The position numbers and the translations under genes were made by a program. Positions 16,895 to 24,357 of a stretch of DNA of 64,000 nucleotides are shown one piece after another; the stretch's first letter is position 1; every line of letters begins with the position of its first letter. Under the pieces are notes generated by a model. It did not search any database. It saw nothing but the letters and a program-made list of their open reading frames with translations, and was not told where the DNA came from. The DNA comes from an uncultured Christensenellaceae bacterium (GTDB lineage Bacteria > Bacillota > Clostridia > Christensenellales > Pumilibacteraceae), in contig CAJUPB010000012.1 in NCBI GenBank assembly GCA_910588155.1, forward strand, positions 2,046 to 66,045, written 5' to 3'.

Positions 16895-17602
16895 ATGATA
16901 AACGTAGCCATAGTCGAAGACAGCGAAAAGGACGCGGAAAAACTCGCGGACTTCGTTCGCCGCGTTTTAAACGAGGCGGGACGGCAATGTCTCATAACTT
17001 CTTTCAAAACTTCCGTATCCTTTCTCGAAGGTTATCGCGCCAACTACGAAATTGTGTTTATGGACATCGAATTGCCGGATATTGACGGAATGGAAGCCGC
17101 AAAAAGGCTGCGCGCCGCCGATTCCGACGTGATTCTTATTTTTGTCACGAATATGGCGCAATTCGCAGTCAACGGTTATGCCGTGGACGCAATGGATTTT
17201 ATGGTAAAGCCCGTTTCATACGACAATCTCAAATTGAAAATGTCGAGGGCGTTGAAACGTCTGGACTTACGCAAGGACGAAAAACTCGTCATACAGGGAA
17301 AGACGGGCGCACAGGTTGTGCTTATTCCGCAAATTCGTTATGTGGAGGTTATGAACCACAAACTGACGATTTACACCACGGAAGGGGCGGTGACGGCGTC
17401 CGGTTCGTTGAGCAAGATAGAAGAGAAACTCGCGGGCTTTGATTTTTCGCGTTGCAACAATTGTTATCTTGTGAATCTTAATTACGTTACCGGCGTGGAC
17501 GACTTCACGGCTTATGTCGGCGGCGATGCGCTTTCGATAAGCCGTTCGCGCAAAAAACAGTTTTTGAAGGACATCGCCGACCATCTCGGCGGGAGTATAT
17601 AG
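16895..17602 (+). CDS. LytTR-family response regulator
   Basis: The receiver domain carries the acceptor-Asp context (IVFMDIELPDIDG). The C-terminal LytTR domain has IRYVEV...LTIYT and RCNNCYLVNLNYV. Confidence 0.88.
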   Translation: MINVAIVEDSEKDAEKLADFVRRVLNEAGRQCLITSFKTSVSFLEGYRANYEIVFMDIELPDIDGMEAAKRLRAADSDVILIFVTNMAQFAVNGYAVDAMDFMVKPVSYDNLKLKMSRALKRLDLRKDEKLVIQGKTGAQVVLIPQIRYVEVMNHKLTIYTTEGAVTASGSLSKIEEKLAGFDFSRCNNCYLVNLNYVTGVDDFTAYVGGDALSISRSRKKQFLKDIADHLGGSI

Positions 17603-17604
17603 AT

Positions 17605-19005
17605 ATGTACGAAGTCGGCGCTCTCTTTTGGTACAGACTTGTTTTTTTGACGGAGATTCTCATTGCGGAAGCTCTGATAGTCTACCGTTTGAAACGCCGT
17701 TCTCTTTTTTGGCTGCGTCTGCCTTTGGCTGTTTTAGGCACTTATGCGCTGGCATTTGCCGTGCCCGTTTTGGAAGGCGCGTTTTTAAGTTCGGTTATGT
17801 ATCTTGCGCTGTTTGTCATAACGATTTGCGCAATGAAAATATTGTTTGACGAAAGACTCATAAAGATAGTTTTTTGCGGCGTGGCGGCGTATACTTTACA
17901 GCATATCGCATACGAATTGTTCAATCTTTCCGCCGTGCTTATGGGTATTGCGAATGTTTCAAACGTGCAGGGAAGCGGAACTTTCGATTTTGTTACCATT
18001 CCCAACAGCGACGGGGAAATGTTTGTCAGCGGAAACCCGTTTACGATTATGGTCTATCTCTTTATATGGGGTATGACTTATTTCTTCGGGTATTTGTTTA
18101 TCAAAAAGCGTTTGGGCGACAGGAAAGATTTTGCCGAGGACAATAAAAAGATGTTTTTTCTTGCCGCCTTAATTTTGTTTTTCGACGTTATAATAAGCTC
18201 CATAATCGCGTGGTACAGCCGCAAAGATTTTAACAGAATGTATGTGCTGTTTCTCGATTTGTTCAATATCTTTTGCTGCATATTCGCGCTGTACTTGCAG
18301 TTCGACGTCGACGACAGGGGAAAACTTCAAAACGACCTGTCTGTTATAAAACGTCTGTGGGAGGAAAAAGAGGAGCAGTACAAGGTGAGTAAATCGAACA
18401 TCGAACTGATAAACCTGAAATGTCACGATTTAAAGCATCAGATACGCTCGATTGGCGAAAGCGGCTCTTTGGACAAAAACGTCGTCAAAGAAATCGAAGA
18501 CGTCATATCCATTTACGATTCGTCGGTCAAAACGGGCAACGAGCCGCTGGACATTATTTTGACGGAGAAAAGTTTGTATTGCAGCCGTCACGGAGTCAAA
18601 CTCTGCTGTATAATCGACGGCAAGAAGCTGGCGTTTATGTCGCAAGCCGATTTATATGCCCTGTTCGGAAATATCATAGACAACGCAATCGAAGCAGTCG
18701 AACCGCTCGACGAGGGCAAAAAGACGATAAGCCTTTCCATAAAGGAAGTCAGCGGATTTCTCACGATAAACATACATAATTATTACAACGGAGAAATTGC
18801 GTTTGAGAACAAGTTGCCGAAGACGACGAAAGGCGACAGCGCATATCACGGCTACGGGATGAAGAGCGTAAGACTTTTGTGCGACAAGTACGGCGGCGAA
18901 ATGTCGATAAAGACGGAAAATCAGGTGTTCAATCTGAATATCGTGTTTCCGAAAACGGTTTACGCTCGTAAATCGACGGATAACGAAATAGCTATTGAAA
19001 AATAA
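17605..19005 (+). CDS. Membrane sensor histidine kinase, AgrC/HPK10-like GHKL type
   Basis: There are 5-6 predicted N-terminal TM helices. The H-box is LKCHDLKHQIRSI, the N-box is LFGNIIDNAIEA, and the G-box is HGYGMKSV. The gene starts 2 nt after the regulator gene. Confidence 0.82.
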   Translation: MYEVGALFWYRLVFLTEILIAEALIVYRLKRRSLFWLRLPLAVLGTYALAFAVPVLEGAFLSSVMYLALFVITICAMKILFDERLIKIVFCGVAAYTLQHIAYELFNLSAVLMGIANVSNVQGSGTFDFVTIPNSDGEMFVSGNPFTIMVYLFIWGMTYFFGYLFIKKRLGDRKDFAEDNKKMFFLAALILFFDVIISSIIAWYSRKDFNRMYVLFLDLFNIFCCIFALYLQFDVDDRGKLQNDLSVIKRLWEEKEEQYKVSKSNIELINLKCHDLKHQIRSIGESGSLDKNVVKEIEDVISIYDSSVKTGNEPLDIILTEKSLYCSRHGVKLCCIIDGKKLAFMSQADLYALFGNIIDNAIEAVEPLDEGKKTISLSIKEVSGFLTINIHNYYNGEIAFENKLPKTTKGDSAYHGYGMKSVRLLCDKYGGEMSIKTENQVFNLNIVFPKTVYARKSTDNEIAIEK

Positions 19006-19106
19006 AAATCAGCGTTTATAATTACGGTGTAACCGAAAATCAACGGTTATGCCGTTTTTATGTACATAATTGCGGGATAACATCGATAAAGGAAGGAGGA
19101 TTTTGT

Positions 19107-21052
19107 ATGAAAAGAAGAAAGTGGGTCTGCGCGCTGACGGCGTTTGCACTCGTCTGTGTGCTCGCTTTGGCGGCGTGCGGCGGAAAAAATTCGCCGCCGC
19201 CCGATGTCCCCCCCCCCCGAAAGTAACGGAGGGCGACGTTTGCATCGATTTGGAGATAGCCAAAAATCCGACGAGGACGGAATATAAGAGCGGCGAGAAA
19301 TTTTCTCCCGCGGGTCTTGTATTCAACGCCGTATATCAAAACGGCTTCGACGGCGACAAGAATCTTACGGGCGGAGATTTGGACGGATGGTCTCCTCGCG
19401 GAGCGTTGGACAGCAGCGTCAAAGAAATTGCGCTTTTGTTCGAGGGCTTCGAGAAAAAGCTGCCGATTACGGTTTCCGACAAAGTACTGCTCGGCGTGGA
19501 AATAACGCGCGAGCCCGATATAACTTCGTATTCTCTCGGCGACCCGCTTGATTTGAGCGGACTTGTTATGAAAGCGTCGTACGAAGAGGGCGACGTGGAC
19601 AATGAAGTCGGATATACTATAACCGACAAAGACGGAAAAGAATACGTGCAGGGTACGATTTTGGATGAGGCTGTCAAAGATTTGACCCTGACGTTGACGC
19701 TTACCGTCGGCGAAGTTACCAAAACCGATACTTTTGTCATTCACGTATACGGCGGCATAACCGTTCAGGCGGAAGACGTCGTAAAAAGCGGCGACACCGC
19801 TCCTACGGATGCAAGCTATACGGTGATTAAAGGCAAGGGCGAATTGAAAACCGATTGCACTTGGACGGGGACAGGGTATATCGGAAGCATAGAAAAAGGC
19901 TTTGAAATAGAATTCTACATCTATTCGGAGGGAGAAATCGCAAATGCCGATTTGGTGCTTTTGGCGGCGTCTACGGTGCAGGATGTTCCGAATAACACTA
20001 TGCTCGATATGCAATTCAACAGATTCTGCAAAGTGTATATAGGAGAGGAGAATGAAGAGGTTTACATTGACGACGATGTAGTTATCCCCGGCAAACCGTT
20101 CCCCGAAGCAAATAGCGGAGGAAACAAGTGGACGAATTGGGCGGACGTGCCGTTCGGAAAGATTGACATAAAGAGAGGCTTCAATAAAGTCAGGGTCGTT
20201 TGTATAGGCGGTATCCCCGACAGCAGCAGTTATCCGAGAACGCCGAATATCGACAGGCTTGACGTCAGACTTTCCGACGACGACCCCGACGAGGTGACTC
20301 GCGGCGACGTTTGCACGGACATTACGATAAAGACTGCGCCGACAAAGCTTGCATATAAAGAGGGCGAATATTTCTCCGCGGACGGCATCGTATTCGACGC
20401 AGTTTACAAAAACGGTTACGGCGGAGACGTGAACCTCGGCGCAAACCGCTTGACTTGGACGCCTGCGGGAGAACTTACGAAAGACGATACTTTCGTAATA
20501 CTGAAATTCAAGAACTTTGAAAAGAAAATAGACATTACGGTGCGCGAAACGCAGCTGATAACCGTGGAAGCCGAGGCTACCTTGGCGAGCGGAGCGACAA
20601 CGCCGACAAACGAGAGCTATACGGTTATTTCCGGCAAGTACAAGAAGGAAGACGGAAAAGGTCTGAACGGCAGCGCCAGCATAAGCGACGTAAGCGTCGG
20701 AACAAAAATCGAGTTTTACGTTTACAGCGAGCAGACGGTGGAAAATGCCGAATTGATTTTGACGGCGGCATCTTTGAAGCGCGGCAGCGGCTTTACCGAA
20801 GATTTGAAATTCAATCAACTGTTCAAACTTACGGTGGACGATGCGGAGGTGACGATACCGGACGACGTATTGATAAAGGGTAAAACGCAAGGTTCCGGCG
20901 AGAGTATATGGTTCTTGTGGACCAAAAACCTGTTATCCGAAATCGGTTTGAAACAGGGCTTTACCAAAATCGGCATCGAATGTATTGCCACGATAAACGA
21001 CGGCGGAATTCAACGCGCGGCAAATATCGACAAGATTGAGATACGCTATTAA
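19107..21052 (+). pseudogene. Lipoprotein with Big_3-like Ig domains and two CBM-like beta-sandwich modules, frameshifted in a C11 tract (phase-variable candidate or homopolymer sequencing error)
   Basis: GGAAGGAGGA lies before the ATG at 19107. MKRRKWVCALTAFALVCVLALAAC-GG is a lipoprotein signal and this frame stops at 19224-19226. The 610-aa body continues from the C tract in the -1 frame (PPPPKVTEGD...). Repeats have the form EYKSGEKFSPAGLVFNAVYQNG. The CBM-like modules end in NIDRLDV and NIDKIEI. Confidence 0.75.
19208..19218 (+). repeat. Homopolymeric C11 tract
   Basis: Eleven consecutive C, counted directly (gtCCC CCCCCCCC ga). A tract of 12 or 9 C would fuse the signal peptide to the body. 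Confidence 0.95.
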
Positions 21053-21064
21053 AGGAGACAGTAA

Positions 21065-24000
21065 ATGGAAAATAAAACGAAGAAAAAATTATTGCTCAAA
21101 CCTTCTCAAATAGTTATTATCATTGTCACGGTTATAGTGACCGCGATTATGATAACGGCAGACTGTTTCGCGTCGAAGTATGCGCCCATAATATCGACTT
21201 TCCTCGGTTGTACAGAACAGTTGGAGGGCGACACTTCCAAGGTCGAGGAAGGCGCAAAGAGCGGCGACGAGGTGGTCAGAAAGTTGGCGGACGACGGCGT
21301 GGTGCTTATGAAAAACGCGCCGCACGCAAGCGGAGGCAACACGCTTCCTCTCCCTGCGTCGCAGAAGAATATAAACGTATTCGGCTGGTACGCCACGGAT
21401 GCGGGATTCCTGCTTGCGGGCAACGGTTCGGGACGCTCTTATGTTCACCCCGACAATAAAGTGACATTTTTGCAAGCGCTTAAAGCCGGCGGTTTCAATT
21501 ATAACGACGAAATAATCAAGATATACGAAAAACACCGCACGACCGAAGATGCGGATTGGGGCGAAAGTGCGAATTGGAACAACCGATACAACACCAAGCT
21601 CAAAGAACCGCAGACGGCAACGGCGTTTCCCGCAGACGTCGTGACTCGGGCAAAAGAGTTTTCCGACACGGCGGTCGTGGTGCTGTCGCGTTACAGCGGC
21701 GAATACATCGGGCGCATAAGCTCGACGCAAAAGAAGTCGGGACTGCCGGAAGATACGACGCGTTCGGTAAGCGAAATAAGCACGGAAGAAGAAACGTTGA
21801 TTAAGATGTGCACGTCGAATTTCGACCGAGTCATCGTGATTTTCAATACGGGTTCGATAATGGATATGACGTTCATAGACGACGAGGAGAATTTCGGAAA
21901 GATAGGCGCGGCGATGAACGTCGGGTATATGGGACAGTCGGGCGCGACGGCGATTCCGAAGATTCTTTCGGGCGAAATCAGTCCGAGCGGCAAACTTGCC
22001 GACACTGTGCTTTACGACCCCGACGTCAACGAGATTTCCCGCGTCAACGGCGAATCGAAAGACATAGTTTATGCCGAAGACATATATGTCGGTTACAAAT
22101 TCTACGAAACTGCCGACAAAGAAGGCTATTTCAAAGACAAAACCAAATTCGGAAAGACGGGATATGACGCAGTGGTGCAATATCCTTTCGGTCACGGACT
22201 GTCCTATACGACGTTTGATTGGGAAATCGAATCCGTGAGTTTGCCCGACGGCGAAGAACTTACGAAGGAGACCGAAATCGAGCTGAAAGTCAAAGTGACC
22301 AACAGCGGCAATAAAGAGGGCAAGGACGTCGTTCAGCTTTACTATACTGCGCCTTATATAAAAGGCGGCATAGAGAAGTCTGCCGTAAATCTTTTGGACT
22401 TTGCCAAAACAAAGTCTTTGAAGCCGCAGGAATCGGATGTCGTAACGTTTACGTTTACGCCGTACGAAATGGCGAGCTACGACTGCTATGACAAGAACGG
22501 AACAGAGACTACGGGTTGGGAGCTTGATATCGGCAAATACGAAATCAAACTTATGACCGATTCGCATCATCTGAAACCGATGGAACAAAACACGCTGACA
22601 TACGAGATTAAAGATTTCGTATTGCGTTACCGCAAAGACCCCGTCAGCAACGGAAGAATCAGAAACCGTTTTACGGGAGAATTGGCGTACGGAGAGTGTG
22701 CCTTGGACGGCTCTACGCTCGGAGTGGATTGGAAATATCTTTCGAGAGGAGATATTGCGGGAACCGTTCCGAAAGAGAGATGCAAAGGGCTTTCCGACAA
22801 GACGGTTGCGCCTTATGCGAACTATCAATACGACCTTTACGATTATACGCAAAAGCCCGTTATGGGTCGTGACGGAGGTTTGAGGTTGGTCACGAAGGAA
22901 GACGGCAGTACGGCTTCCGAAGACGAACTGACGGGCAAGAAAGAAGCTTCGCTGAAATATAACGAAGAATTGATTTTCAAGCTCGGACAGAAAGAGAATT
23001 GGAATGCGCCCGAATGGGATACGCTTCTGAATCAATTGACGGAAGAAGATTTGAGAACCATTGTCGAAGACGGCGGATACGGTACGCGTGCGGCGGCAAG
23101 CATAGGCAAACTGATTTGGTGGGACTACGACGGTCCGTCGGGATTCAACAGAACCAACCTTTCCCCTAACGTGGAAGGCTCCAAAATGACGGCATTGCCC
23201 GCCGAAAACCTCGTTGCGCAGACTTGGAGCAAGCAGCTTGTGTATCAGTCGGGACAAATCATCGGTATAGACGGTCAGAATTTCGGTATATCGGGCATAT
23301 ACGCGCCCTGTATCAATCTTCACCGCGAAATGCTGAACGGCAGAAATTACGAATGTTACAGCGAAGACCCGATTTTGAGCGGCTACCTTGCGGCGAATTT
23401 TGTTCGCGGAGCAAAGTCTAACGGCGTGTATTCGTTCCTGAAACATCTTGCTCTGTACGATTCTTCGCCCTACACCGACAAACGCGTTTGGTGCACGGAA
23501 CAGAATTTCCGCGAGAACTATTTGAAACCTTTCGAGATTGCCATAAAGAAAGGCGAGGCAATCGGCGCAATGGTGTCTTTCAACAAGATAGGCGCTACTT
23601 GGGCGGGTGCCAATCAGGCTATGATAGACGGAGTGCTTCGCACGGAGTTCGGTTTCAAGGGCATAATAGTGACCGACTACGACGACGGCGGAGATTCCAA
23701 TATGAAGCTTCGCGCGGGAATAAGAGCGGGCGTGAACACCCAGCTCAATCCGCTTTACGGCAAAGCGGGTACGCACGGCCGTTTGAATATGAACGATGCC
23801 GTCGACGTGAATCTCGCGAGAGAATCGGCAAAACAGATAATCTATGCGTCTTGCAATACCTATTACTTTGCAAAGAACAATACCGACAAAAACGAGTATT
23901 CTACGGAAATATCGGGACCGCGTGTTTTGAAAAAGAGTTTCGAATGGTGGATACCCGTCGTCATAGTCATAAACATTGCGGTATTCGGTGTGCTTGTGTG

Positions 24001-24313
24001 GCGCGGACTCGTCGCGTTTTTGCCGAAACGAAAGGCAGTTGCGGCAGGGGTAGGCGAAACGGAGGCGGAAGTCTCCGACGGCGGCGGAAAGAGCAGAAAA
24101 GGTTTCTTCGATATATTCAAGAGAAAGAAGAAGAACGCAGAGCAGGATACGTTCGAAGTGGTCGGCGGCGACGGCGTCGTGAAGTCTGTTTCCGCAGACG
24201 GCGAACGCATAAGGCAGTTGGAAACCGAAAATGCGGAGTTGAAACGAGCGGTCGAAGAATTGACGGAAAAACTTGCGGCATTCGAAGCCGAGCGGCCGAA
24301 GAAAAAGAAATAA
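21065..24313 (+). CDS. Glycoside hydrolase family 3, domain-permuted, TM helices at both ends, C-terminal coiled-coil tail
   Basis: N-terminal TM IVIIIVTVIVTAIMI. GH3 C-domain-type motifs come first (VVLMKNAP..LPL, SRYSGEYIG, PFGHGLSYT plus Fn3-like). TIM-barrel motifs follow (YECYSEDPILSG, KHLALYDSSPYTDKR, GIIVTDYDD). A second TM is WWIPVVIVINIAVFGVLVW. The tail reads ERIRQLETENAELKRAVEELTEKLAAFEAERPKKKK. Confidence 0.88.
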   Translation: MENKTKKKLLLKPSQIVIIIVTVIVTAIMITADCFASKYAPIISTFLGCTEQLEGDTSKVEEGAKSGDEVVRKLADDGVVLMKNAPHASGGNTLPLPASQKNINVFGWYATDAGFLLAGNGSGRSYVHPDNKVTFLQALKAGGFNYNDEIIKIYEKHRTTEDADWGESANWNNRYNTKLKEPQTATAFPADVVTRAKEFSDTAVVVLSRYSGEYIGRISSTQKKSGLPEDTTRSVSEISTEEETLIKMCTSNFDRVIVIFNTGSIMDMTFIDDEENFGKIGAAMNVGYMGQSGATAIPKILSGEISPSGKLADTVLYDPDVNEISRVNGESKDIVYAEDIYVGYKFYETADKEGYFKDKTKFGKTGYDAVVQYPFGHGLSYTTFDWEIESVSLPDGEELTKETEIELKVKVTNSGNKEGKDVVQLYYTAPYIKGGIEKSAVNLLDFAKTKSLKPQESDVVTFTFTPYEMASYDCYDKNGTETTGWELDIGKYEIKLMTDSHHLKPMEQNTLTYEIKDFVLRYRKDPVSNGRIRNRFTGELAYGECALDGSTLGVDWKYLSRGDIAGTVPKERCKGLSDKTVAPYANYQYDLYDYTQKPVMGRDGGLRLVTKEDGSTASEDELTGKKEASLKYNEELIFKLGQKENWNAPEWDTLLNQLTEEDLRTIVEDGGYGTRAAASIGKLIWWDYDGPSGFNRTNLSPNVEGSKMTALPAENLVAQTWSKQLVYQSGQIIGIDGQNFGISGIYAPCINLHREMLNGRNYECYSEDPILSGYLAANFVRGAKSNGVYSFLKHLALYDSSPYTDKRVWCTEQNFRENYLKPFEIAIKKGEAIGAMVSFNKIGATWAGANQAMIDGVLRTEFGFKGIIVTDYDDGGDSNMKLRAGIRAGVNTQLNPLYGKAGTHGRLNMNDAVDVNLARESAKQIIYASCNTYYFAKNNTDKNEYSTEISGPRVLKKSFEWWIPVVIVINIAVFGVLVWRGLVAFLPKRKAVAAGVGETEAEVSDGGGKSRKGFFDIFKRKKKNAEQDTFEVVGGDGVVKSVSADGERIRQLETENAELKRAVEELTEKLAAFEAERPKKKK

Positions 24314-24324
24314 TGCAGGCAAAC

Positions 24325-24357
24325 AAAAACGGCAGGTCAAGCGACCCGCCGTTTTTT
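24325..24357. terminator. Bidirectional terminator between the convergent GH3 and ilvC genes
   Basis: The stem is ACGGCAGGTC/GACCCGCCGT (1 mismatch), flanked by an A-run and a T-run. Confidence 0.75.

What the first reader, a model, noticed from the sequence alone, without database searches (positions are those of the whole stretch)
19107..19226. C11 homopolymer uncouples a lipoprotein signal peptide from its 610-aa glycan-binding body (phase variation, slippage or sequencing error)
A strong SD and the ATG at 19107 encode a textbook lipoprotein signal (MKRRKWVCALTAFALVCVLALAAC-GG). This frame runs into 11 consecutive C (19208-19218) and stops at 19224. From the tract onward the long ORF continues in the -1 frame (PPPPKVTEGD...). 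The body carries Big_3-like and CBM-like modules and sits directly upstream of a GH3 glycosidase. A tract of 12 C (or 9 C) would give one continuous lipoprotein. The same result could come from -1 ribosomal slippage or transcriptional slippage on C CCC CCC. The ORF-track start at 19070 has no signal peptide and is probably not real.
Basis: seen in the sequence. Interest (0 to 1): 0.6.

Follow-up and report, generated by a model that had tools for sequence, protein, structure and literature searches.

The report
Poly-C on/off switch in lipoprotein gene
A run of eleven C's just after the export signal knocks a sugar-binding surface lipoprotein gene of an uncultured gut Clostridia bacterium out of frame. 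Other samples of the same species carry 9, 10, 11 or 12 C's on otherwise identical DNA, so this is very likely a classical slippage on/off switch caught "off", and it is one of about 46 such runs in this genome.

Summary
ATG 19107 encodes a lipoprotein signal (LAAC lipobox). C11 lies at 19208-19218, the stop at 19224, and the 610-codon body continues in the -1 frame; C9 or C12 would fuse them.

Public assemblies served as a substitute.
- In 17 independent contigs of the same species the tract is C9 (8), C10 (5), C11 (3) or C12 (1).
- The C9 and C10 contigs have 0 mismatches in 2,030 flanking bases, and the body ORF is open in all 17.
- The sister species (88% aa identity, dN/dS 0.057) keeps C9 in frame and also shows C10 and C12 alleles.
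- More distant orthologues have G9 or G10 at the same linker position.

Genome-wide, G/C run lengths are bimodal (C6=11, C7=1, C8=7, C9=16). The 46 tracts of 8 or more bases sit after lipoboxes, in promoter spacers, at LytTR regulator/kinase junctions, and in GH3 and methyltransferase genes. MutS and MutL are intact.

Verdict: a slipped-strand contingency locus caught OFF, a new member of a known kind in an unfamiliar clade (Christensenellales-like MAGs). Earlier reports of this scan described the same kind of switch in other gut Clostridia genomes. Within-clone switching is not shown.

The parts
16895..19005 (+). Upstream two-component system: LytTR response regulator (16895-17602) and GHKL histidine kinase (17605-19005). 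It is a possible transcriptional regulator of the lipoprotein-GH3 operon (inferred).
   Evidence: Pfam Response_reg + LytTR, and HATPase_c_5. The same gene order is seen in all related contigs.
18995..19022 (+). Sigma-70-like promoter TTGAAA-16-TATAAT (11 of 12 matches), overlapping the end of the kinase gene.
   Evidence: Consensus scan. Both hexamers are conserved in the sister species although dS is about 1.3.
19024..19060 (+). Terminator-like hairpin plus T-run. It probably terminates the upstream two-component operon. A transcript started at the promoter above would begin inside its 5' arm.
   Evidence: Both arms are conserved in the sister species. The function is inferred.
19095..19099 (+). 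Shine-Dalgarno GGAGG, 7 nt before ATG 19107.
   Evidence: Conserved in the sister species.
19107..19178 (+). Lipoprotein signal peptide MKRRKWVCALTAFALVCVLALAAC (lipobox LAAC, Cys24).
   Evidence: The same N-terminus is fused to the body in intact alleles P0001, P0048 and P0052. Lgt and LspA are present in the genome.
19179..19207 (+). Pro-rich linker after the lipid-modified Cys (GGKNSPPPDV).
   Evidence: The AF2 model has pLDDT below 50 for residues 14-35.
19208..19218 (+). C11 homopolymer, the hypermutable tract. It is OFF here; C9 or C12 is ON, C10 or C11 is OFF.
   Evidence: C9, C10, C11 and C12 occur in 17 independent contigs. The sister species has C9.
19224..19226 (+). TAA stop that ends the 39-aa signal-only product in the C11 state.
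19220..21052 (+). Body of the lipoprotein (610 codons plus stop, -1 frame relative to the ATG). Layout: two Ig-like modules (about 19235-19753), a CBM6/35-like beta-sandwich (about 19754-20275), an Ig-like module (about 20303-20548) and a second beta-sandwich (about 20549-21049).
   Evidence: ORF. Pfam Big_3. AF2 mean pLDDT 84.6. Foldseek hits to CBM6 2cdp and CBM35 2w1w/2w47, TM 0.65-0.71. dN/dS 0.057. Module boundaries are read from the model's secondary structure and are approximate.
21053..24313 (+). Its own SD (AAGGAG 21053-21058) and a GH3 glycosidase (21065-24313). The GH3 has a permuted domain order (GH3_C, Fn3-like, GH3_N) and hydrophobic segments at both ends.
24331..24357 (+). Hairpin plus T-run that ends the two-gene operon.
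   Evidence: Read. The function is inferred.

Best explanation
The C11 run is a slipped-strand (simple-sequence-repeat) contingency tract. It lies in the disordered linker just after the lipid-modified cysteine of a surface lipoprotein.

Proposed mechanism:
- During replication the run gains or loses single C's far more often than ordinary bases mutate.
- With 9 or 12 C the ribosome reads from the signal peptide into the body (PPP or PPPP). The cell then displays a lipid-anchored protein with Ig-like and CBM6/35-like modules, which probably captures glycan for the co-transcribed membrane-anchored GH3 glycosidase.
- With 10 or 11 C, translation stops after 39 to about 45 codons and the body is not exported.
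- The allele in this assembly (C11) is OFF.

The locus is one of about 46 poly-G/C tracts in this genome. Together they form a clade-wide set of phase-variable loci in an uncultured Christensenellales-like family.

Shown: the tract-length polymorphism, the ON/OFF frame consequences, conservation of the site, purifying selection on the body, and the genome-wide excess of such tracts. Inferred: switching within a clonal lineage, the switching rate, the selective agent (phage, IgA or glycan supply) and glycan binding.
For: 1. In 17 contigs from distinct SRA runs or MAGs the tract is C9 x8, C10 x5, C11 x3 and C12 x1. The C9 and C10 contigs have 0 of 2,030 flanking mismatches to the window. The body is open in all 17.
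2. Among the 15 listed members of the 68-member 90% cluster, ON forms (647 and 648 aa) stand on 35 contigs and OFF forms (615, 635 and 649 aa) on 33.
3. The sister-species orthologue (88% aa identity) has C9 in frame at the same site. Its own cluster shows C9, C10 (641 aa, OFF) and C12.
4. dN/dS is 0.057 at dS 1.30, so the body is maintained while nine identical C's persist.
5. Orthologues in other genera carry G10 or G9 (encoding GGGG or GGG) at the same linker position. This points to repeated acquisition of a tract at this site.
6. G/C run lengths are bimodal, with 46 tracts of 8 or more bases, whereas A/T runs decay monotonically. Ordinary long genes encode PPP with mixed codons and use GGG for only 7.7% of Gly codons.
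7. Two more lipoprotein genes have the same signal-tract-body design. At least 13 tracts lie in -35/-10 spacers upstream of lipoprotein, membrane or surface genes.
8. The excess is shared by 23 of 24 genomes of the family. It is rare elsewhere in the class: 79 of 150 sampled genomes have no G9 run, and only one has more than this genome.
Against: - Neither the C11 call in this assembly nor within-population heterogeneity is verified.
- All the evidence comes from short-read-type assemblies, which are least reliable at long G/C runs.
- Polymorphism between samples shows hypermutability, not reversible switching within a clone.
- Five of six OFF tracts in this genome are one base shorter than an ON length. 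That is compatible with chance (p about 0.11) but also with an under-calling bias.
- MutS1 and MutL are intact, unlike in Campylobacter or Helicobacter. They are also intact in Neisseria and Haemophilus.
Confidence: 0.8

Rival explanations
1. The C11 in this particular assembly is a sequencing or assembly miscall. The dominant allele in the sample would then be in frame (C12 or C9) and the gene intact here. This rival concerns only the state in this MAG; the locus could still be phase-variable.
For: The genome is a 30-contig MAG-type assembly with N-gaps. Long G/C runs are the weakest point of short-read data. C11 is one base short of the ON length C12. Five of six OFF tracts in this genome are ON-1. 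Reads could not be checked.
Against: C11 also occurs in three other independent assemblies of a slightly different strain, with 6-7 mismatches in 1,830 bases. Across assemblies the common OFF length is C10, which is not what a simple -1 under-call of C9 or C12 would give, and no C8 was seen. Errors cannot explain the bimodal run-length distribution or the consistent placement of tracts.
Confidence: 0.1
2. The full-length lipoprotein is normally made from out-of-frame alleles by recoding. This would be -1 ribosomal slippage of tRNA-Pro on C CCC CCC for C11, +1 slippage on CCC-C for C10, or RNA-polymerase slippage on the C run. The tract would then tune expression level instead of switching it off.
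For: An all-C run lets P- and A-site tRNA-Pro re-pair perfectly in any frame, and long homopolymers are known sites of transcriptional slippage (general knowledge). Three of three post-lipobox tracts in this genome are out of frame.
Against: No stimulatory structure lies 5-9 nt downstream. The fold z-score is -1.95, and the only strong hairpin starts more than 60 nt downstream. The frameshifted arrangement is not conserved: the sister species and about half of same-species alleles are simply in frame. By chance, three of three OFF has p about 0.3.
Confidence: 0.06
3. The gene is a plain pseudogene, permanently inactivated by a 2-base insertion and on the way to decay.
For: The frame is broken in this assembly, and the 39-aa product has no plausible function of its own.
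Against: There is no second lesion in 610 codons here or in any of 17 related contigs. dN/dS is 0.057. ON and OFF alleles occur on identical backgrounds. The tract is conserved in the sister species.
Confidence: 0.03

Closest known systems
Poly-G/C contingency loci of Campylobacter jejuni and Helicobacter (for example PMC8355987, PMC2823697)
   Same: The genome holds tens of G/C homopolymers of 8-11 nt, a distinct second mode in run length. They lie in the 5' coding regions or promoters of surface-structure genes. Length changes of +/-1 toggle the reading frame.
   Different: The host is a Gram-positive-type, uncultured gut Clostridia lineage (Christensenellales-like MAGs). MutS1 and MutL are present, whereas these epsilonproteobacteria lack them (my own knowledge). 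The targets here are lipoproteins with Ig-like and CBM-like modules, GH3 enzymes and LytTR two-component systems, not capsule, LOS or flagellar glycosylation genes.
Neisseria meningitidis poly-G tracts in ORFs (hmbR, hpuAB; PMC3786947) and promoter-spacer tracts (PMC5084427, PMC5953494)
   Same: Both types occur together: translational ON/OFF by a poly-G/C run in the ORF, and homopolymers between -35 and -10. Mismatch repair is intact.
   Different: The phylum and envelope differ. Here the ORF tract sits specifically in the linker after the lipobox cysteine. No experimental switching rates exist.
Bifidobacterium breve pilus poly-G slippage switch (PMC9187656)
   Same: A gut commensal with an ON/OFF replication-slippage switch at a G tract in a surface-structure gene.
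   Different: That case is a few experimentally validated loci in a cultured actinobacterium. This case is a genome-wide set of about 46 tracts in an uncultured lineage, inferred from comparative data only.
Homopolymer-tract-regulated surface protein genes in other bacteria: Listeria inlA 5' poly-A (Orsi et al. 2010, PMC2831843); Treponema pallidum tpr poly-G promoters (PMC7864442); homopolymer promoter tracts of Mycoplasma variable lipoprotein genes (my own knowledge)
   Same: A homopolymer near the 5' end or in the promoter of surface protein or lipoprotein genes, with a frameshift truncating the product.
   Different: The tract base (A versus G/C) and the organisms differ. For Listeria inlA the truncations are mostly fixed alleles.

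Membership tests
SSR-mediated (homopolymeric tract) translational phase-variable contingency locus | A long homopolymer (about 8 nt or more) inside the 5' part of an ORF | tested here: met
   C11 at 19208-19218, which is codons 34-38 of a 648-codon gene.
SSR-mediated (homopolymeric tract) translational phase-variable contingency locus | Tract length differs among very close relatives whose flanks are otherwise identical | tested here: met
   C9, C10, C11 and C12 in 17 contigs. The C9 and C10 contigs have 0 of 2,030 mismatches to the window.
SSR-mediated (homopolymeric tract) translational phase-variable contingency locus | Both in-frame (ON) and out-of-frame (OFF) lengths occur, and the rest of the ORF stays intact | tested here: met
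   The 647/648-aa forms versus the 615/635/649-aa gene calls. The body is open in all 17 contigs. dN/dS is 0.057.
SSR-mediated (homopolymeric tract) translational phase-variable contingency locus | Such tracts are over-represented in the genome relative to the decay of shorter runs | tested here: met
   C5=296, C6=11, C7=1, C8=7, C9=16, C11=1; G5=262, G6=15, G7=0, G8=8, G9=11, G10=3. Rare in the class-wide sample.
SSR-mediated (homopolymeric tract) translational phase-variable contingency locus | High-frequency, reversible switching within a clonal population | not testable with these tools
Only polymorphism between samples is available.
Bacterial lipoprotein (Lgt/LspA substrate) | A positively charged n-region, a hydrophobic h-region, and a lipobox [LVI][ASTVI][GAS]C with Cys at position 15-35 | tested here: met
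   MKRRK-WVCALTAFALVCVLA-LAAC, Cys24. The pattern was checked by eye; no SignalP-type predictor was available.
Bacterial lipoprotein (Lgt/LspA substrate) | The genome encodes Lgt and signal peptidase II | tested here: met
   PF01790 at 147.7 bits (C15:19632-20357) and PF01252 at 99.4 bits (C4:60672-61139), both above the curated cut-offs.
CBM6/CBM35 carbohydrate-binding modules | Beta-sandwich (galactose-binding-like) fold superposable on CBM6/35 structures | tested here: met
   AF2 mean pLDDT 84.6. Foldseek hits 2cdp (CBM6) and 2w1w/2w47 (CBM35): probability 1.00, TM (target) 0.65-0.71, 15-18% identity.
CBM6/CBM35 carbohydrate-binding modules | Sequence-profile membership (Pfam CBM_6 or CBM_35) and conserved sugar- and Ca-binding residues | tested here: not met
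   No CBM family was reported by Pfam at E <= 0.01; only Big_3 was found. Binding residues were not examined. I therefore call the modules 'CBM6/35-like fold', not members.
Programmed -1 ribosomal frameshift site | A slippery heptamer of the form X XXY YYZ in the zero frame | tested here: met
   C CCC CCC lies within the tract in the frame of ATG 19107. This is formally slippery.
Programmed -1 ribosomal frameshift site | A stimulatory hairpin or pseudoknot 5-9 nt downstream, with the shifted arrangement conserved in orthologues | tested here: not met
   The fold of 19200-19330 has z = -1.95, and its strong hairpin starts more than 60 nt downstream. Orthologues and half of the conspecific alleles are in frame.

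The most novel reading that the evidence does not exclude
An entire family of uncultured gut Clostridia (Christensenellales-like) with intact MutS and MutL runs a Campylobacter-style poly-G/C set of phase-variable loci. It comprises tens of tracts per genome, in four placements:
- the linker after lipoprotein lipoboxes;
- -35/-10 promoter spacers of surface and membrane genes;
- the junction between LytTR regulator and kinase genes, where the G-run doubles as the kinase's ribosome-binding site;
- GH3 glycosidase and DNA methyltransferase genes.

If so, glycan-foraging surfaces, signalling and possibly methylation are all stochastically diversified within populations of a commensal. Phase variation in the gut has so far been described mainly through invertible DNA.
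Probability: 0.55. Interest if true: 0.55.

Novelty: new member of a known kind. Interest (0 to 1): 0.4.

Why it matters
Slipped-strand phase variation is textbook biology for a few mucosal pathogens. In my four searches of the held paper library I found nothing on it for Christensenellales or other uncultured gut Clostridia.

If the switch is real, three things follow.
1. Annotation pipelines will systematically mis-start or split these lipoprotein genes. Here they give the false TTG 19070 start, and 615-, 635- and 649-aa gene calls elsewhere.
2. Gene-content and pangenome comparisons of such MAGs will misread ON/OFF states as gene loss.
3. Surface glycan-capture modules (a CBM-like lipoprotein plus GH3) of an abundant commensal group may be diversified by bet-hedging. 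That bears on phage and IgA escape and on strain-level niche partitioning.

As a single locus it is an ordinary example of a known mechanism. The genome- and family-wide pattern is the more useful lead.

Tried and rejected
- JGI metagenome scan with the two flanks and a variable gap: 0 hits, so that collection gave no extra tract-length counts.
- Programmed frameshifting: I folded the downstream RNA and found no suitably placed stimulator. Rejected as the main route.
- Pseudogene: rejected on dN/dS, the intact body in all alleles, and ON/OFF alleles on identical backgrounds.
- Loss of mismatch repair as the cause of the tract excess: rejected, because mutS1 and mutL are intact.
- An i.i.d. base-composition expectation is a poor null. 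It predicts tens of runs of 8 or more bases but also about 240 C6 runs, against 11 observed. I used the empirical decay of run lengths and the gap at 7 instead.
- Orthologous tracts elsewhere: a syntenic 20-kb comparison with the sister species showed that the C5:60097 and C5:60249 tracts are not shared. At C5:60097 the -35/-10 hexamers and the 18-nt spacer length are conserved, with ordinary sequence in place of the tract. The second lipoprotein gene has no DNA-level match there. Tracts therefore turn over between species.
- Literature: four searches found no paper on SSR phase variation in Christensenellales or uncultured gut Clostridia. Absence from this library is not proof of absence.

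Full report
**1. Observation**

- A GGAGG Shine-Dalgarno (19095-19099) precedes ATG 19107.
- The ATG opens MKRRKWVCALTAFALVCVLALAAC|GGKNSPPPDV. It has a charged n-region, a hydrophobic core and an LAAC lipobox with Cys24 (19176-19178).
- Eleven C's occupy 19208-19218, and the frame ends at TAA 19224-19226 after 39 codons.
- The 610-codon body (AAA at 19220 to the stop at 21050-21052) lies in the -1 frame.
- The mechanical ORF start at TTG 19070 only reads the SD and signal region out of frame, so it is not a real start.
- Adding one C (C12) or removing two (C9) joins signal and body.
- The genome encodes Lgt and signal peptidase II, so a lipoprotein pathway exists.

**2. The gene and its neighbourhood**

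Pfam finds only a weak Big_3 match in the body. I built an AlphaFold2 model of an intact allele from 28 homologues. It is confident (mean pLDDT 84.6) and all-beta, and the first ~35 residues are disordered. Foldseek against the PDB gives domain-level matches to CBM6 (2cdp) and CBM35 (2w1w, 2w47), with target TM-scores of 0.65-0.71. "Ig-like plus CBM6/35-like modules" is therefore supported at the fold level. It is not supported at the sequence-family level, and glycan binding remains inferred.

A GH3 glycosidase (21065-24313) starts twelve bases after the stop. It has its own AAGGAG ribosome-binding site, a permuted domain order (GH3_C, Fn3-like, GH3_N) and hydrophobic segments at both ends. 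A hairpin and T-run near 24331-24357 close the operon.

Upstream lie a LytTR response regulator and a GHKL kinase. Next come a near-consensus promoter (TTGAAA-16-TATAAT, 18995-19022) and a terminator-like hairpin (19024-19055). Both the promoter and the hairpin are conserved in the sister species.

**3. Is the tract variable?**

Public assemblies served as a proxy.
- The body protein falls in a 90%-identity cluster of 68 members.
- The 15 listed members have five lengths, and their N-termini read out the tract length exactly:
  - 647 aa (…DVPPPKV, C9, ON; 26 contigs);
  - 648 aa (…DVPPPPKV, C12, ON; 9 contigs);
  - 635 and 615 aa (…MSPPPKV, C10, OFF; 25 contigs);
  - 649 aa (…ARCPPPPKV, C11, OFF as here; 8 contigs).
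- I fetched DNA for 17 contigs from different SRA runs or MAGs. The tract was C9 in 8, C10 in 5, C11 in 3 and C12 in 1.
- The C9 and C10 contigs do not differ from the window at any of 2,030 flanking positions.
- The body is open in all 17 contigs.

The tract thus changes far faster than any other base in the region, and ON and OFF states are about equally common.

**4. Conservation**

- A same-genus species has the orthologue at 88% amino-acid identity, with C9 in frame at the same site: …ENPPPAKITEGD.
- That species' own cluster contains C9, C10 (641 aa, OFF) and C12 (649 aa) forms.
- Between the two species the body shows dN/dS = 0.057 at dS = 1.30. That is strong purifying selection, and at that divergence nine identical C's would not persist by chance.
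- Orthologues in other genera ("uncultured Christensenellaceae/Clostridia" MAGs) carry G10 or G9, encoding GGGG or GGG, at the same linker position. Others have no tract.
- A different base at the same place suggests independent acquisition of a hypermutable run in this linker.

**5. Genome context**

The assembly is 2.07 Mb in 30 contigs and 97.75% complete.
- Its G/C run lengths are bimodal:
  - C5=296, C6=11, C7=1, C8=7, C9=16, C11=1;
  - G5=262, G6=15, G7=0, G8=8, G9=11, G10=3.
- A/T runs decay smoothly.
- Extrapolating the decay up to length 7 predicts well under one run of 8 or more bases; 46 are present.
- Ordinary long genes encode Pro-Pro-Pro with mixed codons and rarely use GGG (7.7% of Gly codons).

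The tracts are placed non-randomly.
- Two more lipoprotein genes have the identical design of signal, poly-C and a body of about 830 aa. Both are out of frame: C5:51610 has C10 (ON would be 9 or 12), and C5:79559 has C9 (ON would be 10 or 13).
- A 2,573-aa secreted protein has G9 in frame after its signal peptide.
- At least 13 tracts lie between -35 and -10 hexamers upstream of lipoprotein, membrane or large surface genes.
- Four LytTR regulators end in a G8-9 run 5-13 nt before the kinase start codon, where the run looks like the ribosome-binding site. A fifth LytTR regulator (C7:4500) is truncated by G8.
- In-frame 9-nt tracts occur in two GH3 paralogues, a HAMP kinase, an AraC regulator and a ParB-N6/N4 methyltransferase.
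- A Dcm-like methyltransferase is split into three frames at a G8 and a G9.
- At the C5:60097 promoter tract, the sister species has the same hexamers and the same 18-nt spacer length but ordinary sequence. Tracts are therefore gained and lost between species.

The excess is a property of the clade.
- 23 of 24 sampled genomes of the family have G8+ runs, often tens of them. Sixteen other families of the order have 0-30 overlapping hits.
- In an even sample of 150 Clostridia genomes, 79 have no G9 run, and only one has more than this genome.
- MutS1 and MutL are intact.

**6. Mechanism and rivals**

The best-supported reading is a slipped-strand contingency locus, with this allele OFF (confidence 0.8). 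Translation from ATG 19107 then gives only a 39-aa pre-lipopeptide. The GH3 can still initiate on its own SD.

- An error in this particular assembly cannot be excluded without reads (0.1). It would not explain C11 in three other assemblies, the predominance of C10 among OFF alleles, or the genome-wide pattern.
- Five of six OFF tracts here are one base short of an ON length. This is compatible with chance (p about 0.11), and I flag it.
- Programmed frameshifting or transcriptional slippage may leak some product. It lacks a positioned stimulator and the arrangement is not conserved (0.06).
- A decaying pseudogene is contradicted by the intact body and by ON/OFF alleles on identical backgrounds (0.03).

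**7. Comparison and novelty**

This works like the poly-G/C contingency loci of Campylobacter, Helicobacter and Neisseria, and like the Bifidobacterium breve pilus switch (PMC8355987, PMC2823697, PMC3786947, PMC5084427, PMC9187656). All sequence-level criteria for membership are met. Reversible within-clone switching is untestable here.

Four literature searches found nothing on such tracts in Christensenellales or uncultured gut Clostridia. Earlier reports of this scan describe the same kind of post-lipobox poly-G/C tract in other uncultured gut Clostridia genomes. Within this project the kind has therefore been seen before, on other DNA.

I rate the locus a new member of a known kind, with interest 0.4. 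The family-wide set of tracts is the more interesting lead.

Noticed in passing
whole genome G000 (the window is C12:2046-66045): G/C homopolymer lengths are bimodal. There are 46 runs of 8-11 nt, almost none of 6-7, and a mode at 9. A/T runs decay smoothly. The excess is shared by 23 of 24 family genomes and is rare in a 150-genome class sample.
   Followed up: partly
G000:C5:49123-51630 (-) and G000:C5:77167-79641 (-): Two paralogous lipoprotein genes of about 830 aa have the same design of signal peptide, poly-C tract and body. Both are out of frame in this assembly (C10 where 9 or 12 is ON; C9 where 10 or 13 is ON).
   Followed up: partly
G000:C5:17305, C6:116765, C9:8866, C14:11025; also C7:4500 and C6:63507: Four LytTR response-regulator genes end in a G8-9 run 5-13 nt before the start codon of the following GHKL kinase, so the run looks like the kinase's Shine-Dalgarno. 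A fifth regulator (C7:4500) is truncated by G8 (G9 would restore it). A GH3 gene (C6:63507) has G8 as its apparent SD.
   Followed up: partly
G000:C2:125198-141592: Six G/C tracts lie within 17 kb. One is a Dcm-like C5-methyltransferase split into three frames at a G8 and a G9. Another is a ParB-N6/N4 DNA methyltransferase with an in-frame G9. This may be a mobile element carrying phase-variable methyltransferases.
   Followed up: partly
window 18995-19060: A near-consensus promoter (TTGAAA-16-TATAAT) overlaps the kinase stop codon and is followed at once by a terminator-like hairpin. Both are conserved in the sister species. A transcript from this promoter would start inside the hairpin's 5' arm, so the hairpin could stop read-through from the two-component operon without stopping the lipoprotein transcript.
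   Followed up: partly
window 21065-24313; G000:C3:64942-68136; G000:C19:11852-15400: The GH3 downstream of the lipoprotein has a permuted domain order (GH3_C, Fn3-like, GH3_N), an N-terminal hydrophobic anchor, and a C-terminal hydrophobic segment followed by a charged tail. Two paralogues with the same domain order carry in-frame 9-nt G/C tracts in mid-gene.
   Followed up: no
L022:3091 (G10) and L023:3084 (G9), orthologues in other genera: Distant orthologues of the lipoprotein have a poly-G tract instead of poly-C, encoding GGGG or GGG, at the same position between lipobox and first domain. This suggests repeated evolution of a tract at this site.
   Followed up: partly
G000:C5:60097-60105 versus G001:C11 (alignment A2): A C9 promoter-spacer tract in this genome corresponds to ordinary sequence (GCTCTGAAT) of the same length in the sister species. 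The -35 and -10 hexamers are conserved, so tracts are gained or lost without changing spacer length.
   Followed up: yes
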